Positions 1-5,925 of a stretch of DNA of 64,000 nucleotides are shown here, one piece after another; position 1 is the first letter of the stretch, and every line of letters starts with the position of its first letter. The DNA is from a phage. The DNA lies in sequence record NC_100371.1; one strand, given 5' to 3'. The notes beneath the pieces are model-generated. The model was not told where the DNA came from and did no database searches. It saw nothing but the letters and a program-made list of their open reading frames with translations. A program made the position numbers and the translations under genes.

Positions 1-1554
1 ATTTTCCATGTTGGATATGGAATTATCTCTGGTTGATGACATCTTAGAAGTGCCGTTGCCAGTGGATCCTGCAGCCATTCCATCGCCAGCTCTACTGATG
101 TCCTGGCCCAAGAGCTTCATTAGCTCTTCCTGATCCATGTCCTCGTCAAATCTTTCATCAAACCCACCTACTTCAAGAATCTTATTAATTACTGCAGGAG
201 TTTTTGGCAAGTAACCTACAGCACCGATCCTCTGGACAAACTTGGAGAAGCTCTCCATGTCCACCTCTTCAATCAGGCCAGGTTTCAGTTTAGGCATATC
301 ATCATCTTCAAGGATGATACCATTCAATGCCAGAAGCTGTGGAATAAGATCTTTATTGAAGGCCTCAGTGATAATATCTATATCACGCTGAACAAAATGA
401 CCATGGATAGACTGTTTTGACTCAGACAGAGAGAAGGATCCAACGTTATCGTTACCGAGGTTAATAAAGCCAGCACCGAAACGGTCAAGAATCGCCTTCT
501 TACGGGCATCAATCAAATCTTTAGTGGAATACTGCTTACCCATACCGTCAACCCCCTTCAGGGTCATGGAGTAAAGCTCTTTACCAGACTTATCTCTATC
601 AGACGGAAGTATAAAGAAACTTTGCTCCCCACTATGGGCGTTTGCTGCGTCCAACATAAGATCTGCAACCATTCTCCCTTCCATCGAATTCGGGTCAATG
701 CTGGCCTTGTTCAAAATATTGGAAGGAATTTTCAGCTCAAGCACACCACCAAGGTCTTTGGAGCAGCCAACAACCTCAAGGTTTTCAATCAAAACTTTCT
801 CACGGAAAGATCTGTAGCAACCTATCATCGGTGACACACCTGCAGGATTAGATTCTGTTCCTGACAGAGTCATGAGCATAAGCTTTTTAGCAGGGATGAA
901 AATTTCAGGCTCATTAAAGCCTTTTGAAGGCATTGCAGCGAGAGGTCCAGCCCAGCGTGCATTCTGAGTGTTTAGAAATGCATTAGGTGACTGATAAATA
1001 CCTGTCAGTGTTCTGCTATTCTTGTCAAAGACAAACGGCTCTGATCTGGACAAACTGGCCTGTGGTCGGAATGCAATTTTATCAATAAGAAGCATCCCGG
1101 CATATTTACCTTCTTTCTCTCTGCGGTATACTTTCTCAAACAGTGAAAAACCATACTCGTTAAAGGTAGCTGCGCTTCTTGCAATATCTCGAAGAGTTTG
1201 TTGGTTTGCCAAATTACGCAAAGAATACTCTATAAGCTCGGCGGCTTTCTTAGAGTCTTCACTTTTAACATTATAAAGGATCTTAAAATCATTGAATGCT
1301 TTCGTGATGAAAACATATTTTGTATCTAAGGCAGTAGCAACTGTGGAATCACATTTCATAGTCTCCACTGTGGCAATCAGCTGAGGCCAACGCAATTCCT
1401 CAACCATCATAGATTGTGATTCTGCCATAATTTGGGAAAGTGCGCCAGAACCGATCTCACTCATACGAACATTATGAGTTGGTGCGCCTGCGTTCCCAGA
1501 TTTATTCACAGTTTTGGCTGTGGCGTTGTGTTTCCTGCGGTTCTTTTTGGACAC
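1..1554 (-). CDS. putative portal protein (C-terminal part lies outside the window)
   Basis: Minus-strand reading frame open from a GTG at 1554 (GAGGGG RBS upstream) to the window edge, about 518 codons; sits immediately downstream of terL. Identity inferred from position and size only. Confidence 0.35.
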   Translation of the reverse strand, partial: MSKKNRRKHNATAKTVNKSGNAGAPTHNVRMSEIGSGALSQIMAESQSMMVEELRWPQLIATVETMKCDSTVATALDTKYVFITKAFNDFKILYNVKSEDSKKAAELIEYSLRNLANQQTLRDIARSAATFNEYGFSLFEKVYRREKEGKYAGMLLIDKIAFRPQASLSRSEPFVFDKNSRTLTGIYQSPNAFLNTQNARWAGPLAAMPSKGFNEPEIFIPAKKLMLMTLSGTESNPAGVSPMIGCYRSFREKVLIENLEVVGCSKDLGGVLELKIPSNILNKASIDPNSMEGRMVADLMLDAANAHSGEQSFFILPSDRDKSGKELYSMTLKGVDGMGKQYSTKDLIDARKKAILDRFGAGFINLGNDNVGSFSLSESKQSIHGHFVQRDIDIITEAFNKDLIPQLLALNGIILEDDDMPKLKPGLIEEVDMESFSKFVQRIGAVGYLPKTPAVINKILEVGGFDERFDEDMDQEELMKLLGQDISRAGDGMAAGSTGNGTSKMSSTRDNSISNMEN

Positions 1555-1574
1555 AAGCTTTACCCCTCAAAACA

Positions 1575-1606
1575 GTATAACAAAATAGCCCTCGTGTCAG
1601 AGGGCT
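1575..1606 (-). terminator. rho-independent terminator after terL
   Basis: Hairpin AGCCCTC-loop-GAGGGCT followed by a T-tract on the minus strand. Confidence 0.5.
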
Positions 1607-1656
1607 AGTATCTCCGATTACTCTATTCTACCACATCTAATTAAGATTGGCAACAC

Positions 1657-2757
1657 TTAGATAAAACGCTTGAACATAGAAGGTGATGAGATTGATGGAA
1701 TCACACAAGGCAGCGCTACCTCCTCTTTCTCCAGGAAATTAATCGCAGAAGCTACACAGTCGGCCCAGTCGTCTTTTCTGTTAAATGTTGATCTTTCCCC
1801 GTTGAACTTTTCAAGTTCAGTCAGAAATGCTTCCAGAGTGTCAGGATGGAAACTGGATTTTACAATCCTCACCATTCCTTGTTGGGCAAGATTGGCAAAA
1901 GGTGAGAACCTTGTCAGTTTAGATTTGTTGGAAGGCATTGGATCTTCTTCAACCCTGAACCCTTCGGCGAGCAAGGATCTGGACGAGGTTAAGAATTCAC
2001 TCTTACCTGCCTGACCGGGGTCCACAGAAAATACGATTATGCAATCATCTCCATCAAACTGCGCCTGTTTCCTGATGATCACATCTCGTTCCCCAGCCTT
2101 TTTACAGAACTTACCTTCCAGACCTGTGGAATACCTACCGTCATCCACGTTCTCAGGACAATAATCTCCGGACAGGTAATAAAAGCCGTCGCTATCTTTA
2201 CTTACCTTAACACTGGCGGTAAAGTCAGGAAATTTATTACCGGAAGTTCTCTCGGTTCCTGCTTTATCCCATGCCCTGCAAGATACTGATCCAAGAGGTA
2301 CTCTATCGGCATCACGAAGGAAAGATCTTTGGAAATAGTTTGCACCCTCAGGTTTGGCAAACCAGTTGCCATGAAGAAGCTGGGCTTTTTCAAGCTCTGG
2401 CAGACCTTCAAGGAAAGCAAGGTATTCTGGGTTGTCTCTCAAGCAGACAGGGTTATCGAAAATTGTTGCTCCTATAAACGAGAATGACAACGGTCTTGGC
2501 TTGATCTCCACACCCAGTCCGTTAACCGTGGTGTATTTCTCTATTAACTCTTCTTTAGAGTCTCCCCAAATAAATTCACCGTCGCGTCGGATAAAATATC
2601 TTTTCTTACCACATTTCTCCGGATCTGGATACCCTTCATCGTCCAACCACCACCTGACCAGTTTGGCAAGCATGTGTTCTGAGTCGGGGTTACAACTGAT
2701 AACCATTCTTGATGGATACTTTGACTGAGATCGCAGACGAGACATCAAATAGTCTAT
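1657..2757 (-). CDS. terL: terminase large subunit, exon 2 (nuclease/C-terminal part)
   Basis: 363-aa ORF ending with a terminase-like nuclease region (DWADCVASAINFLEK); the frame stays open upstream to about 2781. The 5' boundary (3' splice site) is approximate. Confidence 0.65.
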   Translation of the reverse strand: MDYLMSRLRSQSKYPSRMVISCNPDSEHMLAKLVRWWLDDEGYPDPEKCGKKRYFIRRDGEFIWGDSKEELIEKYTTVNGLGVEIKPRPLSFSFIGATIFDNPVCLRDNPEYLAFLEGLPELEKAQLLHGNWFAKPEGANYFQRSFLRDADRVPLGSVSCRAWDKAGTERTSGNKFPDFTASVKVSKDSDGFYYLSGDYCPENVDDGRYSTGLEGKFCKKAGERDVIIRKQAQFDGDDCIIVFSVDPGQAGKSEFLTSSRSLLAEGFRVEEDPMPSNKSKLTRFSPFANLAQQGMVRIVKSSFHPDTLEAFLTELEKFNGERSTFNRKDDWADCVASAINFLEKEEVALPCVIPSISSPSMFKRFI

Positions 2758-3661
2758 CTGCTCCCATTCGAATTGCGTCGTTTATGTTCGGGCAAGGTCG
2801 CTAGTCTTGCCCCGCCATTTTCAGGCAGCTGCATGTCTCCATGCAGACCAGACTATATCTTATGAATGTGCAAATACTCTGCTGCTCTAAGAATGGTTTC
2901 CTCATCCTCTTGGAAGAAACCTAAAGCTCTGTTGCATTTATCACAAAGCAACCCTCTTACAGCACCAGTTTTATGGTCATGATCAACACAAAAGAAATCT
3001 CTGTACCCTTGCGTCCTATACTCATCAAGAGATATTCTACAAATGGCACACTTATGATCTTGATCTGAGAGTAAGCGATAGTATTCATCTTTTGTTATGT
3101 GAAATTTCTTCTCAATCTGATAAAACTTTTCACACATCTTACACCTGTTCGTAACCAGATACACTTTACCATAGTCACGTTTTGTGTAAAAACTATCAGC
3201 AAGCATACTTTCATGACAAGATTTACATTCAAAAAGCTCACCTTTCTTCAGTAAGTCTTGAATAAAAGATGCTGCATCATCTCTCTTAACCATATTTTTG
3301 TTTCTACGAGATCCATTCTTCCTGTAGTACATATAGCATTCCTTGCATGTACCGGAGTATCCATCCTTGCTCTTAGATGATAAAAAGAAATCATCAAGAG
3401 GTAGAACTCTTTGGCAATCCATACATTTTTTAGTATTACACATTCACCCTCCCGTTTCGAATCGCTTGATTCTACGTCTTTCGACTAGTCGTTGAACGTT
3501 CATCCTTTCGGATGCTTCGCTGCGGATTATCTAAATTAACACACTGTTACCATACCTTCGATCTCTCTTCGAAGCCTCTATCATGTTACCATGACAGGTT
3601 GGTGGTGTCAATAATAAAGATTTCCCCGCAATTAGGGAGGTTTTACGAGAGCTACAAATTA
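2758..3661 (-). mobile_element. group I self-splicing intron with embedded homing endonuclease gene
   Basis: Minus-strand matches to group I core elements P (AATTGCGGGGAAA), Q (AATCCGCAGC), R (GTTCAACGACTA) and S (AAGATATAGTC), in canonical order, sit between the two terL ORFs. Exon 1 ends ...GAT GAG GGT followed by TAA. Boundaries are approximate. Confidence 0.7.
2853..3443 (-). CDS. intron-encoded homing endonuclease, EndoVII/HNH-like with N-terminal zinc fingers
   Basis: 196 aa; motif DHDHKTGAVRGLLCDKCN resembles T4 endonuclease VII; several CxxC pairs; GGGAGGG RBS; the stop codon overlaps the intron S element. Confidence 0.7.
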   Translation of the reverse strand: MCNTKKCMDCQRVLPLDDFFLSSKSKDGYSGTCKECYMYYRKNGSRRNKNMVKRDDAASFIQDLLKKGELFECKSCHESMLADSFYTKRDYGKVYLVTNRCKMCEKFYQIEKKFHITKDEYYRLLSDQDHKCAICRISLDEYRTQGYRDFFCVDHDHKTGAVRGLLCDKCNRALGFFQEDEETILRAAEYLHIHKI

Positions 3662-4087
3662 ACCCTCATCGAAGCAAACCATGGTGTACTCAAGTCCTTG
3701 ATGGTTAAGCTTATCTTGGACATACTCCATGTGGCAGTATTTTACAACAGCTCCTTTTTTGCTCCTGTCCCACTTGCCAGTGCTCGGATCAAACCGTGGA
3801 AAAATAAACTTATGATCCTTCTCTCTGAACTTTGGTTTAATGTTTTCAGGCAGATCACTGTAAATAGCTACTGCTTTAGGCCATAGCCCACCCTCACCTT
3901 CCAACTGTGGAGTTGTTCTTCGGAACATAACCACAGAGCTGTGTGGGTCATCAATAATTTTAAGCGGCATCAACTGCAGGAGGAACGACTTACCTGACCC
4001 AGCCGCACCACCAATGACAAGAATGTCTGCATCGTTTTCCAGGATCATCTTCTGCTTTTCAGAACACGGTCCGTAAATCTTAGACAT
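3662..4087 (-). CDS. terL: terminase large subunit, exon 1 (ATPase N-terminal part)
   Basis: Walker A GGAAGSGKS and Walker B-like VCFDE; the ORF is cut by a stop codon right after the Walker B region, where the intron begins. Confidence 0.7.
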
Positions 4088-4374
4088 TAACCTCTCTCCT
4101 TTGGAAACAGTGTTCTAATATAGTCTTGCAAAATGATCAATTTAGCCCTATCATTACTGCAAGACAGGTTATTATCCCTCATAATGCCAGAATTCACCGC
4201 ATCAGGCGCACCTTTCTTTAAAGGTATAGCTTTAGCAGGAGGCTTCATAGCACCCTCGGGAGGTTTAACAATCAACCTTCCTACATCCGGAGGGTCAATC
4301 TTGTATTCTCTCTCAACGCTGGTTGCACACCCACACAATAACAAGCACAAAACAACCAGTGCAGTAACTCTCAT
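4087..4374 (-). CDS. o-spanin (Rz1-like outer-membrane lipoprotein)
   Basis: Signal peptide with lipobox-like LLCGC, Pro-rich mature part; strong RBS CAGGAGG; start overlaps the stop of the upstream i-spanin (ATGA). Confidence 0.55.
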   Translation of the reverse strand: MRVTALVVLCLLLCGCATSVEREYKIDPPDVGRLIVKPPEGAMKPPAKAIPLKKGAPDAVNSGIMRDNNLSCSNDRAKLIILQDYIRTLFPKERG

Positions 4375-4769
4375 CGAACCTCCTGATTGATACTCTCATT
4401 ATAAATATCTATTAGCTGATCAGGAAGTGTTGACTTCTTACCTTCAGGAGATTGGAGGTAGATAATCTGCTTTTCTTTGCCTGCCTTCTCAGCCATATTT
4501 AATTTATCCTGTAGATCAGAAAGAGATTTTTCAAGGTTTTTAACCTCCTCTGCGTGGCCCATTTTAATTTTGTCGGCCTGCTTTTGTTGTTGGTCAAGGA
4601 TCCGTTCCCACTTTAACTCTGTTGCTGACACACCTTCTTGATAAGCATCATTGAGCTTAGAGTTAAACCAATACACGGCCCCAAGATAAGCCATACCTAT
4701 AGCCGCTGCAAAAACTAAACCTTTTATGATCCCTCTGTGTTTACTCATCAATGTTAAAACTGAAATCAT
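4371..4769 (-). CDS. i-spanin (Rz-like)
   Basis: N-terminal transmembrane segment followed by a charged coiled-coil-like region; GGAG RBS. Confidence 0.5.
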   Translation of the reverse strand: MISVLTLMSKHRGIIKGLVFAAAIGMAYLGAVYWFNSKLNDAYQEGVSATELKWERILDQQQKQADKIKMGHAEEVKNLEKSLSDLQDKLNMAEKAGKEKQIIYLQSPEGKKSTLPDQLIDIYNESINQEVR

Positions 4770-5435: not shown

Positions 5436-5534
5436 GGTGCTAGGTGATGGAATCGAACCATCTATGTATTCAACGACTACCTCGTCTATTTTCAGGATTA
5501 AAAATCCTCGCCCTTGCCAAAGGGCTTACCTAGC
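5436..5534 (-). tRNA. atypical tRNA-like gene (long variable region; anticodon not assignable by eye)
   Basis: Perfect acceptor pairing GCTAGGT/ACCTAGC and canonical T-arm GATGGTTCGATTCCATC, but about 99 nt long with an unusual anticodon-arm region (AGGAT-TTTTA-ATCCT); no complete encoded CCA. Confidence 0.4.
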
Positions 5535-5837: not shown

Positions 5838-5925
5838 TGGTGGTGAGTGATGGAGTCGAACCACCCGAATCGCAATGATAACAGATTTACAGTCTGCCCC
5901 GCTACCCCTACGGAATTAACTCACC
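5838..5925 (-). tRNA. tRNA-Tyr (anticodon GUA), type II
   Basis: Acceptor GGTGAGT/ACTCACC, anticodon loop CTGTAAA, long variable arm, CCA. Confidence 0.7.

What the first reader, a model, noticed from the sequence alone, without database searches (positions are those of the whole stretch)
2758..3661. Group I intron with an EndoVII/HNH homing endonuclease splits the terminase large-subunit gene
The TerL ATPase ORF (Walker A GGAAGSGKS, Walker B-like VCFDE) stops at 3659-3661, and a TerL nuclease-domain ORF resumes about 0.9 kb downstream on the same strand. The intervening minus-strand sequence carries recognisable group I core elements in canonical order: P (AATTGCGGGGAAA), Q (AATCCGCAGC), R (GTTCAACGACTA) and S (AAGATATAGTC). 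A 196-aa EndoVII-type ORF (DHDHKTGAVRGLLCDKCN plus zinc fingers) lies between R and S, with its stop codon inside S. Exon 1 ends in ...GGU, giving the U needed at the 5' splice site. Exact splice sites are not resolved.
Basis: partly seen in the sequence, partly recalled or inferred. Interest (0 to 1): 0.8.

Follow-up and report, generated by a model that had tools for sequence, protein, structure and literature searches.

The report
Known self-splicing intron in phage terminase gene
The DNA-packaging (terminase) gene of this rV5-like E. coli phage is interrupted by a real but already documented mobile self-splicing intron that carries its own DNA-cutting enzyme gene, so the finding is correct but ordinary.

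Summary
The window comes from an rV5-like coliphage (Vequintavirus). Its terL gene, on the minus strand, is split by an 883-nt group I intron at 3661..2779. Exon 1 ends GAT GAG GGT and exon 2 starts ACG CAA TTC. Closely related intron-less phages read straight across this junction and encode the identical protein. Rfam's group I model matches over its full length (E=8e-11, 47.9 bits, 2.1 below the curated cut-off because of a 568-nt insert in the P8 loop). ORF-less copies of the same intron in sister phages score 81-84 bits. Across 10 homologues, 98% of the proposed pair positions are base-paired and 35 of 94 pairs show compensatory changes. The 196-aa ORF has an intact endonuclease VII (DHHRN) motif and fills the P8 loop. 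Its ribosome-binding site lies in P3' and its stop codon in P7. Among 118 Vequintavirus records, about 57% have no intron, 18% an ORF-less intron and 25% the intron with the ORF. This pattern is typical of a mobile intron. It is already known: the 2013 rV5 genome paper describes introns in the terminase gene, GenBank records annotate the joined gene, and a 2018 paper lists the orthologous intron-encoded endonuclease. Splicing itself was not tested.

The parts
3662..4087 (-). terL exon 1 (142 codons: Walker A GGAAGSGKS; Walker B ...MVCFDEG; last codon GGT)
   Evidence: ORF list and sequence. Pfam Terminase_6N positions 2-104. The exon ends at the same base at which intron-less alleles continue.
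2779..3661 (-). Group I intron, 883 nt, IA-type architecture (P1, P3-P9.2, with P7.1/P7.2 and no P2). It begins with UAA, which is in frame with exon 1, and ends with a terminal G at 2779.
   Evidence: RF00028 match 2829..3671, 47.9 bits, E=7.9e-11, model 1-253. Boundaries come from alignment with intron-less FFH2. All helices are complementary. Covariation is shown.
1657..2778 (-). terL exon 2 (373 codons plus stop; begins ACG CAA TTC = TQFEWEQIDYLMSRLRS...; holds the rest of the ATPase domain and the RNaseH-like nuclease domain)
   Evidence: Pfam Terminase_6N 117-211 and Terminase_6C. The spliced product is 515 aa. A 113-aa peptide spanning the junction is 100% identical to FFH2 in a single tblastn piece.
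2853..3443 (-). Intron-encoded endonuclease gene (196 aa). It has three Cys4 zinc sites (C7/C10+C33/C36, C73/C76+C101/C104, C132/C135+C167/C170) and the DHDH154-157...R163...N171 EndoVII motif.
   Evidence: Pfam PF02945 E=2e-21. PHROG endonuclease VII families. PDB matches to Hpy99I (E=1.6e-5) and T4 endonuclease VII (E=7e-4).
3645..3669 (-). P1: exon AUGAGGGU plus intron UA (3669-3660) paired with UAGCUCUCGU (3654-3645). The splice-site U (3662) pairs with G (3654).
   Evidence: 10/10 positions paired. The U.G pair is invariant in 10 homologues.
3621..3640 (-). P3 5' strand CCUCCC (3640-3635), J3/4, and element P / P4 5' strand (3633-3621)
   Evidence: P3 shows 2 compensatory pairs.
3535..3612 (-). 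Peripheral P5a/P5b/P5c extension (P5b is capped by a GUAA tetraloop)
   Evidence: Found by unconstrained MFE folding in five homologues. 11 of 22 pairs show compensatory changes.
3486..3528 (-). Element Q / P4 3' strand (3528-3519), P6 hairpin (3514-3501), element R with the P7 5' strand GACUA (3490-3486)
3459..3485 (-). P7.1 (GUC-GAAA-GAC) and P7.2 (GAAUC-AAGC-GAUUC) hairpins between P7 and P3', the hallmark of subgroup IA
   Evidence: P7.2 is kept through GGGCC/GGCCC and GGUCU/AGGCC in divergent homologues.
3439..3453 (-). P3 3' strand GGGAGG (3453-3448), which contains the endonuclease Shine-Dalgarno GGAGG, followed by the P8 5' strand GUGAAUGUG (3447-3439), which contains the AUG start (3443-3441)
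2851..2870 (-). P8 3' strand CACAUUCAU (2870-2862), J8/7, and element S with the P7 3' strand UAGUC (2855-2851), which contains the ORF stop codon
   Evidence: P8 is kept with four unrelated stem sequences; 6 of 9 pairs are compensatory.
2791..2846 (-). P9 (2846-2829), P9.1 (2828-2812) and P9.2 (2811-2791) hairpins, followed by the tail GAACAUAAACG
   Evidence: This 3' domain is 82% identical to that of the T4-type td intron.

Best explanation
This is a mobile, self-splicing group I intron of the phage IA type, 883 nt long, inserted in the Walker B-coding part of the large terminase gene of an rV5-like coliphage.

Inferred splicing mechanism. The terL transcript folds into the ribozyme core. 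The exon end GAGGGU pairs with the internal guide GCUCUC to form P1, with U.G at the cleavage site. An external guanosine attacks after U3662. The freed exon end then attacks after the terminal G at 2779. This joins GGU to ACG and restores one 515-aa TerL, ...VCFDEG-TQFEWEQ.... Unspliced RNA stops translation at once, on the intron's first codon, UAA.

Inferred endonuclease role. The P8 loop holds a 196-aa EndoVII/DHHRN-type endonuclease gene. Its Shine-Dalgarno sequence is the P3 3' strand, its start codon lies in P8 and its stop codon lies in P7, so translating the ORF and folding the ribozyme probably exclude each other. In mixed infections the enzyme is expected to cut the intron-less terL allele near the insertion site. 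Repair from the intron-bearing genome would then copy the intron in, together with the adjacent exon base: T at position -1 instead of C.

Shown here: the anatomy, the exact exon junction, covariation of the helices, and the presence/absence polymorphism. Inferred: the catalysis of splicing, the activity and target of the endonuclease, and homing.
For: - **Model match.** RF00028 matches over its full length, E=7.9e-11. ORF-less copies of the same intron in HMD-6, Pr121LW and JEP1 score 81-84 bits, above the cut-off of 50.
- **Junction.** Intron-less FFH2, FV3, Murica, YP-6 and SYGMH1 read ...GATGA(G/A)GGC|ACGCA(G/A)TTC... without interruption at exactly the predicted junction. The peptide spanning the junction is 100% identical to FFH2 in one tblastn piece.
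- **Position -1.** All 10 intron-bearing alleles have T at exon position -1 and all 5 intron-less alleles examined have C.
- **Helices.** 15 helices are fully complementary in the window.
- **Covariation.** On 10 homologues, 98.3% of the sequence-by-pair positions (cells) form a pair, against 35-43% when partners are slid. 35 of 94 pairs show compensatory changes, against 9.4+-2.2 in shuffles and at most 6 when slid.
- **P8.** The stem is maintained with four unrelated sequences, with and without the ORF.
- **Endonuclease gene.** The ORF matches Pfam Endonuclease_7 at E=2e-21 with an intact DHDH/R/N motif and zinc cysteines. Homologues 71% and 56% identical sit in P8 of the homologous intron at the same terL site in more distant phages.
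- **Allele states.** Three states occur among 118 near-identical genomes.
- **Literature and annotation.** The rV5 paper has a section 'Introns in terminase' (PMC3606486). rV5 and DrSchubert annotate terL as a join. Fang et al. 2018 list the JES2013 intron-encoded EndoVII-motif protein (PMC6083498); JES2013 is 95.9% identical to this locus.
Against: - No RNA evidence of splicing exists for this phage or, in the papers I could search, for any Vequintavirus. The RT-PCR proof in Pectobacterium phage CB7 concerns an unrelated intron 6 nt upstream.
- The window's own Rfam score (47.9) is 2.1 bits below the gathering cut-off, and the default scan misses the intron.
- No convincing P10 pairing with exon 2 was found, and there is no P2.
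- The endonuclease's activity, target site and cleavage type are unknown.
- The covariation set is small (10 sequences, 7 of them close relatives).
Confidence: 0.93

Rival explanations
1. The gene is truly split. The insert is a free-standing endonuclease cassette that is not spliced out, and TerL is made as two polypeptides that assemble after translation, as reported for the mobE-split NrdA of Aeromonas phage Aeh1.
For: Many GenBank records annotate two separate 'terminase large subunit' CDSs. Such unspliced splits are documented in phages (discussion in PMC7344957). Exon 1 ends on an in-frame stop.
Against: A complete group I core with covariation flanks the ORF. Sister phages carry the same RNA element without any ORF, which a protein cassette cannot explain. 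Exon 2 has no start codon or ribosome-binding site at its 5' end: the first ATG is 11 codons in (the ORF caller's TTG start is 10 codons in) and has no Shine-Dalgarno sequence at a normal distance, so the conserved TQFEWEQIDY segment would be lost. The split would fall just after the Walker B aspartate and glutamate.
Confidence: 0.03
2. The intron splices, but the EndoVII-type ORF is not, or is no longer, a homing endonuclease. It could be an inactive passenger, or it could have been recruited for another job, such as helping terminase cut DNA, as HNH proteins do in HK97-like packaging machines.
For: No activity has been measured. HNH proteins that work with terminases are known (Kala et al. 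2014, cited in PMC7344957). One metagenomic copy carries a frameshift (L007/L013), so decay does occur.
Against: About 75% of Vequintavirus genomes lack the ORF yet are viable phages, so it is not needed for packaging. All catalytic and zinc-binding residues are intact in the window. The ORF is conserved at 56-90% identity in the same P8 location in several lineages, which points to selection for function. Its patchy distribution among >95% identical genomes is what mobility predicts.
Confidence: 0.1
3. The intron copy in this window is splicing-defective, a decaying remnant, and the sequence comes from a non-viable or mis-assembled genome.
For: The Rfam score is below the gathering cut-off. 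Relative V18 shows a scrambled junction.
Against: The core differs from the ORF-less copies that pass the cut-off only by a few substitutions that preserve pairing. Every helix is intact. The same 883-nt form occurs in about 29 isolated, plaque-forming phages. The score deficit is explained by the 568-nt insert in the P8 loop.
Confidence: 0.02

Closest known systems
terL introns of Escherichia phage rV5 (Kropinski et al. 2013, Virol J 10:76; NC_011041 terL annotated as a three-part join)
   Same: Same gene, same insertion site and the same intron lineage. The rV5 intron 1 core is about 97% identical, and the exon junction GGT|AC(A/G) is the same.
   Different: In rV5, intron 1 is ORF-less (319 nt), and a second intron about 300 nt downstream carries an HNH gene (gp066). 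In this window, intron 1 carries an EndoVII-type gene in P8 and the second intron site is empty. The same configuration as the window's is annotated in JES2013, APECc02 and the BASEL phages DrSchubert, MaxBurger and others.
T4-type phage group I introns (td, nrdB, sunY; subgroup IA2)
   Same: They share the P7.1/P7.2 pair, the P9-P9.2 3' domain (82% identical to td over 78 nt), a nested endonuclease gene, insertion in a conserved catalytic motif, and patchy distribution.
   Different: The host gene is terL rather than a nucleotide-metabolism gene. From general knowledge, the ORF sits in P8 here, whereas it sits in P6 in td. The enzyme is EndoVII-type, not GIY-YIG (I-TevI/II) or HNH (I-TevIII). 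There is no P2. Formal subgroup assignment was not done.
DHHRN (Endo VII-motif) homing endonuclease family, prototype F-CphI of cyanophage S-PM2 (Fang et al. 2018, Mob DNA 9:27)
   Same: The motif is C-terminal: CX2C...DHDH...R...CX2C-N. The best structural relatives are Hpy99I and T4 endonuclease VII. The paper lists the intron-encoded protein of Escherichia phage JES2013, the ortholog of this ORF.
   Different: F-CphI is free-standing, lying next to an intron ('collaborative homing'), whereas this gene lies inside the intron. This protein has two extra N-terminal Cys4 modules. No biochemistry has been done on it.
terL group I intron of Pectobacterium phage CB7 (Certrevirus; splicing shown by RT-PCR, PMC7344957) and of Vibrio phage qdvp001
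   Same: The TerL is orthologous, and a group I intron with a nested endonuclease gene lies in the Walker B region.
   Different: The insertion site is 6 nt upstream (VD|EGTQF). The intron core is unrelated (GAATTCAGGG.../AATCCTGAGC). In CB7 the ORF lies between Q and R (in P6) and is an HNH gene. The CB7 RT-PCR result is therefore an analogy, not evidence for this intron.
[quoted passage not shown]
   Same: This is the first reported group I intron in a large terminase gene (cited in PMC3606486).
   Different: It occurs in a siphovirus of a Gram-positive host. I did not compare the sequences here.

Membership tests
Group I catalytic intron (Rfam RF00028) | Significant full-length match to the covariance model, with P, Q, R and S elements in order | tested here: met
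   Model positions 1-253 are matched, E=7.9e-11 and E=4.2e-9 on the whole window. The bit score of 47.9 is 2.1 below the curated gathering score of 50, because 568 nt sit in the P8 loop. ORF-less copies of the same intron (core about 97% identical) score 81.4-84.2 bits.
Group I catalytic intron (Rfam RF00028) | 5' splice site after a U that forms a U.G wobble pair in P1 with the internal guide sequence | tested here: met
   GAGGGU(3662) pairs with GCUCUC, and U3662 pairs with G3654. The pair is invariant in 10 homologues. Intron-less alleles have C at this position.
Group I catalytic intron (Rfam RF00028) | Terminal guanosine (omega-G) at the 3' end of the intron | tested here: met
   G at 2779 lies immediately before exon 2. 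The last intron base is also G in L020 and L022.
Group I catalytic intron (Rfam RF00028) | Core helices P3-P8, including the P3/P7 pseudoknot, supported by compensatory changes | tested here: met
   98.3% of sequence-by-pair positions are paired, and 35 of 94 pairs are compensatory, against 9.4+-2.2 in shuffles and at most 6 when slid. P4, P6 and P7 never vary, so they are uninformative. P3, P5, P5a-c, P7.2, P8, P9 and P9.2 covary.
Group I catalytic intron (Rfam RF00028) | Removal restores an uninterrupted, conserved reading frame | tested here: met
   The spliced terL encodes 515 aa. The junction is identical to the continuous gene of FFH2, FV3 and Murica.
Group I catalytic intron (Rfam RF00028) | Guanosine-dependent self-splicing, in vitro or in vivo | not testable with these tools
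   This needs RT-PCR or in vitro transcription. I found no published test for any Vequintavirus.
Subgroup IA (IA2-like) phage introns | Extra helices P7.1 and P7.2 between the P7 5' strand and the P3 3' strand | tested here: met
   The hairpins are at 3485-3476 and 3472-3459. P7.2 covaries. The 3' domain is 82% identical to the T4-type td intron. Formal subgroup typing against reference alignments was not done.
DHHRN / Endo VII-motif endonucleases (Pfam PF02945; F-CphI family) | CX2-4C ... D-H-(D)-H ... R ... CX2C-N motif, located C-terminally as in the 'endonuclease clade' | tested here: met
   C132/C135, D154 H155 D156 H157, R163, C167/C170 and N171 of 196 aa. PF02945 E=2e-21. Aligns to T4 endonuclease VII residues 8-68 and Hpy99I residues 65-196. 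Criteria are from PMC6083498.
DHHRN / Endo VII-motif endonucleases (Pfam PF02945; F-CphI family) | Site-specific cleavage of the intron-less allele, and homing | not testable with these tools
   There is only indirect support: the patchy distribution among >95% identical genomes, and conserved residence in P8 at one terL site across 56-100% protein identity.
Classical HNH homing endonucleases (I-HmuI, I-TevIII type) | Match to HNH-family profiles (Pfam HNH/HNH_3 and related) | tested here: not met
   The only Pfam match at E<=0.01 is Endonuclease_7. One PHROG labelled 'HNH endonuclease' matches only the N-terminal zinc module, residues 3-68. The EndoVII motif lacks the central Asn of HNH (PMC6083498). 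[quoted passage not shown]
Large terminase subunit, T4-type (Pfam Terminase_6N + Terminase_6C) | N-terminal ATPase with Walker A and B, and a C-terminal RNaseH-like nuclease | tested here: met
   Exon 1 matches Terminase_6N positions 2-104. Exon 2 matches Terminase_6N 117-211 and Terminase_6C. The two halves abut in the profile only after the intron is removed.

The most novel reading that the evidence does not exclude
The overlap between the endonuclease gene's signals and the ribozyme helices may work as a built-in switch. The Shine-Dalgarno sequence is the P3 3' strand, the start codon lies in P8 and the stop codon lies in P7. The enzyme could then be made only from RNA that has not folded into the ribozyme, and a translating ribosome would block splicing. 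That would couple TerL production, and so the timing of packaging, to endonuclease expression. In addition, the fixed C at exon position -1 in intron-less alleles could mark a variant that resists cleavage or cannot support splicing, which would limit the intron's spread. The same intron and endonuclease pairing at one site has persisted down to 56% protein identity. This would make it a natural system for studying how a DHHRN-family endonuclease and its intron co-evolve.
Probability: 0.25. Interest if true: 0.3.

Novelty: already known. Interest (0 to 1): 0.15.

Why it matters
The main value is for annotation. Many GenBank records of rV5-like phages, which are used in phage therapy and O157 biocontrol, list terL as two 'terminase' fragments plus a 'recombination endonuclease VII' or 'hypothetical protein'. 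The correct annotation is a single joined gene, 4087..3662 + 2778..1657 in this window, with a nested homing-endonuclease gene. The default Rfam gathering scan misses this intron because of the ORF in P8, which is a practical warning for automated pipelines. The locus also shows how many selfish elements gather at the catalytic motifs of terminase. In relatives there are three intron sites within about 40 nt of Walker B, a second intron downstream, and an intein in Walker A. No new kind of element is involved.

Tried and rejected
- **Default Rfam scan.** The gathering scan of the whole window found only tRNAs. The intron appears only in the more permissive E-value mode.
- **Collection scans.** Exact-pattern scans of IMG/VR and of the metagenome collection, meant to add intron variants, returned only three loci each. 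Most were duplicates of sequences already in hand.
- **Full-length alignment.** Aligning the full-length introns (A1) pushed the P8/P7/P9 region of the ORF-less copies under the start of the ORF. I replaced it with 'mini-intron' alignments in which the interior of the ORF was removed (A2, A3). In A2 the divergent L008 was still misaligned between P7.1 and P8. Adding L020 and L022 fixed P3' (A3), but the short P8 of L008 is still set aside as gaps.
- **P10.** I looked for P10 pairing between the guide region and exon 2. I found only a shifted 3-bp match in the window, and it is not conserved in L020 or L022, so I make no claim.
- **CB7 as proxy evidence.** I tested whether the RT-PCR-proven CB7 terL intron is the same element. 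It is not: the site and the core both differ.
- **NCBIfam.** It has no model that matches the endonuclease.
- **Endonuclease target.** The sequence CGACG, which fits the Hpy99I site CGWCG, spans the 3' splice junction. I treated this as coincidence, because it is absent from the intron-less target sequence.
- **Covariance model.** I did not build a custom model, because at about 350 positions it would exceed the tool's calibration limit.
Full report
**What the window is.** The region 1500-4400 is 95-96% identical over its full length to many Vequintavirus (rV5-like) Escherichia coli phages. Genes here run on the minus strand in this order: i-spanin (4769..4371), o-spanin (4374..4087), terL, then portal further down.

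**Checking the observation.**
- The ORF at 4087..3659(-) encodes 142 aa with GGAAGSGKS and ...MVCFDEG, and matches Pfam Terminase_6N profile positions 2-104.
- The ORF at 2748..1657(-) matches Terminase_6N positions 117-211 and Terminase_6C. The two ORFs are therefore consecutive parts of one TerL.
- The 196-aa ORF at 3443..2853(-) matches Pfam Endonuclease_7 at E=2e-21, and its TAG stop lies inside S.
- Rfam's default gathering scan of the whole window reports only tRNAs. In E-value mode, the group I intron model RF00028 matches 2829..3671(-) over model positions 1-253, with 47.9 bits (cut-off 50) and E=7.9e-11. On the whole window the E-value is 4.2e-9, and it is the only intron hit.
- The alignment places the ORF as one long insertion in the P8 loop, which accounts for the missing 2 bits.

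**Exact boundaries.**
- A 113-aa peptide spanning my predicted junction (...VCFDEG|TQFEWEQ...) matches phage FFH2 and others at 100% identity in a single tblastn piece, so intron-less alleles exist.
- DNA alignment shows FFH2 reading ...TTCGATGAGGGC|ACGCAGTTCGAATGG..., where the window reads ...TTCGATGAGGGT[883 nt]ACGCAATTCGAATGG....
- The intron is therefore 3661..2779.
- The spliced gene encodes 515 aa.
- All 10 intron-bearing alleles examined have T at exon position -1. All 5 intron-less alleles have C, which is a synonymous GGT/GGC difference. This fits the requirement for a U.G pair at the 5' splice site and co-conversion of the adjacent base. However, the alleles are not phylogenetically independent.

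**Allele states.** Using 201 nt of the intron-less junction as a query, 118 Vequintavirus records match.
- 29 records split the query into two distant places. These carry the 883-nt intron with the ORF, and the same 29 cover the full locus.
- In an evenly spaced sample of 60 rows, 34 were uninterrupted, 11 carried an insertion of about 319 nt, and 15 carried the long form. That is roughly 57%, 18% and 25%.
- These figures come from a half-sample, and some phages are counted twice because both their GenBank and RefSeq records are present.
- The 318-320-nt form (rV5 itself, HMD-6, Pr121LW, JEP1) is the same intron with a short P8 hairpin in place of the ORF. It scores 81.4-84.2 bits against RF00028, well above the cut-off.

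**Secondary structure.**
- Unconstrained folding of the intron, with the ORF interior removed, recovers P1, P3, P4, P5, a P5a/b/c extension, P6, P7.2 (P7.1 only partly), P8, P9 and P9.2 (P9.1 partly). The same architecture appears in four other homologues.
- P7 forms a pseudoknot with P3, so I added it by hand.
- All 15 helices are fully complementary in the window.
- There is no P2, and I found no convincing P10.
- The P7.1 and P7.2 hairpins between P7 and P3', together with 82% identity of the 3' domain to the T4-type td intron, place it among IA-type phage introns. I did not do a formal subgroup assignment.

**Covariation.** On seven close relatives plus three divergent homologues (L008, L020, L022), all at the same terL site:

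| Measure | Proposed structure | Controls |
|---|---|---|
| Sequence-by-pair positions (cells) that form a pair | 98.3% | 35-43% with partners slid |
| Pairs with compensatory changes (of 94) | 35 | 9.4+-2.2 in shuffles; at most 6 when slid |

- An earlier alignment of close relatives gave 10 compensatory pairs.
- P8 is the most telling helix. Its stem is GUGAAUGUG/CACAUUCAU here, GUAAGCG/CGCUUAU in ORF-less copies, AUAUUUGCG/CGCAAAUAU in L020 and AUUUAUG/CGUAAAU in L022.
- P4, P6 and P7 never vary, so they are uninformative.
- Caveats: the set is small, and the structure was derived from these same sequences.

**The intron ORF.**
- It carries three Cys4 sites and the EndoVII catalytic pattern: C132/C135, D154-H155-D156-H157, R163, C167/C170 and N171.
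- Its best solved relatives are the restriction enzyme Hpy99I (E=1.6e-5, aligned over residues 63-192) and T4 endonuclease VII (E=7e-4).
- The only Pfam match is Endonuclease_7. No classical HNH model matches.
- This is the 'DHHRN' family proposed by Fang et al. 2018. Their endonuclease clade has the motif at the C-terminus, and they name an intron-encoded member from Escherichia phage JES2013 (PMC6083498). JES2013 is 95.9% identical to this locus, so the ortholog of this ORF is already in the literature.
- The ORF's Shine-Dalgarno GGAGG (3452-3448) is the P3 3' strand. Its AUG (3443-3441) lies in the P8 5' strand, and its stop lies in the P7 3' strand. Translation and ribozyme folding are therefore likely to compete. 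This is an inference.
- Homologues of 71% (P0003) and 56% (P0005) identity also sit in P8 of the homologous intron at the same terL site in more distant phages. The intron-endonuclease pairing is therefore old.

**Mechanism and rivals.**
- The best-supported explanation is an ordinary mobile group I intron that splices from terL mRNA and spreads by endonuclease-triggered repair. Its anatomy, junction, covariation and patchy distribution are shown here. Catalysis, endonuclease activity and homing are inferred.
- The main rival is an unspliced split gene making two TerL polypeptides. It is contradicted by the ORF-less copies of the same RNA element, by the absence of a start codon and ribosome-binding site at the 5' end of exon 2, and by the complete, covarying ribozyme core.
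- A packaging-helper role for the endonuclease is unlikely, because about 75% of these phages lack it.
- The RT-PCR proof of terL intron splicing in Pectobacterium phage CB7 (PMC7344957) does not transfer. That intron lies 6 nt upstream (VD|EGTQF), has an unrelated core and carries its HNH gene in P6.

**Comparison with what is known.**
- The 2013 rV5 genome paper has a section 'Introns in terminase' and thanks D. Shub for help in locating the intron (PMC3606486).
- The rV5 RefSeq record annotates terL as a three-part join, with an HNH gene in a second, downstream intron.
- BASEL-collection phages with the same arrangement as this window annotate a two-part join plus a 'putative homing endonuclease'. 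The BASEL paper says intron boundaries were set by comparative genomics (PMC8594841).
- This window differs from rV5 only in which optional parts are present. Intron 1 carries the EndoVII gene, and the intron 2 site (about 2461/2460) is empty.

**Verdict.** The finding is correct and well read from raw sequence, but it describes an element that is already annotated and published. Interest is low (0.15). Its residual value lies in precise coordinates, a tested secondary structure, and the warning that default Rfam thresholds miss ORF-bearing introns.

Noticed in passing
window ~2461/2460 (-); L006 2244-2468; L003 1443-2435; L010 (rV5): Relatives rV5, HdK5 and JEP1 carry a second group I intron in terL. 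It is ORF-less in JEP1 (Rfam 92.7 bits) and carries a ~230-aa HNH gene in rV5 and HdK5. It is inserted around the codons for ...GATI|FDNP. That site is unoccupied in this window.
   Followed up: partly
L020 1385-3681; L022 1951-3665 (Logan metagenome contigs): More distant relatives have terL genes crowded with selfish elements. Both carry an intein inside Walker A (GGAAG|CLSKDHE...GN|SGKS). L020 has an extra group I intron 33 nt upstream of this one, leaving an 11-codon mini-exon (LQYTFIGFDEG). L022 has a second, downstream intron with an HNH_3 gene.
   Followed up: partly
L024 (Pectobacterium phage CB7) 384-1350; L011 (Vibrio phage qdvp001) 2317-2584: An unrelated group I intron lineage occupies a site 6 nt upstream in orthologous terL genes, between the D and E of Walker B. 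Together with L020, that makes three distinct intron sites within about 40 nt of this motif.
   Followed up: partly
L018 (Escherichia phage V18, KY683736) around locus 130-160: Exactly at the intron insertion site, V18 has a 9-bp duplication (GGTTTGCTT) and one missing G (GATGAGG-CACGCAG). This shifts the frame, and terL is annotated as two CDSs. It could be a sequencing error or a scar of imprecise repair at the endonuclease target.
   Followed up: no
window 5438-5534 (-): A 97-nt tRNA-like gene scores 37.5 bits against Rfam tRNA. ARAGORN calls it 'tRNA-???' with a four-base anticodon. It has a ~25-nt variable arm and the anticodon loop UUUUUAA. It lies between tRNA-Thr and tRNA-Ser and is not annotated in rV5. 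The neighbouring tRNA at 5841-5925 (Tyr in rV5) is found by Rfam but missed by ARAGORN.
   Followed up: partly
window 3611..3583 (-): A sigma-70-like promoter match (TTGACA-17-TAACAT, 10 of 12 positions, with an extended-10 TG) lies inside the intron's P5a/P5b region, upstream of the endonuclease gene. It could drive endonuclease expression independently of terL. The region as a whole shows no excess of such matches over shuffled sequence.
   Followed up: no
L007 / L013 (IMGVR_UViG_3300010279_000001 = Ga0129313_1000039), within the endonuclease ORF: This metagenomic copy of the intron is 884 nt long. A run of six T's instead of five inside the ORF frameshifts the endonuclease gene. This is either decay of the gene or a homopolymer sequencing error.
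   Followed up: no
GenBank MG065639-MG065690 ('Campylobacter phage' C15, A12a, A142, D#, etc.): About 18 records labelled as Campylobacter jejuni phages are ~96% identical to E. coli rV5-like phages across this locus. They show all three terL allele states. The host labels look doubtful.
   Followed up: no
window 4087-4769 (-): A spanin pair lies immediately upstream of terL. The o-spanin gene (4374..4087, lipobox-like LLLCGC) overlaps the i-spanin gene's 3' end by 4 nt, and its stop overlaps the terL ATG (TAATG).
   Followed up: no
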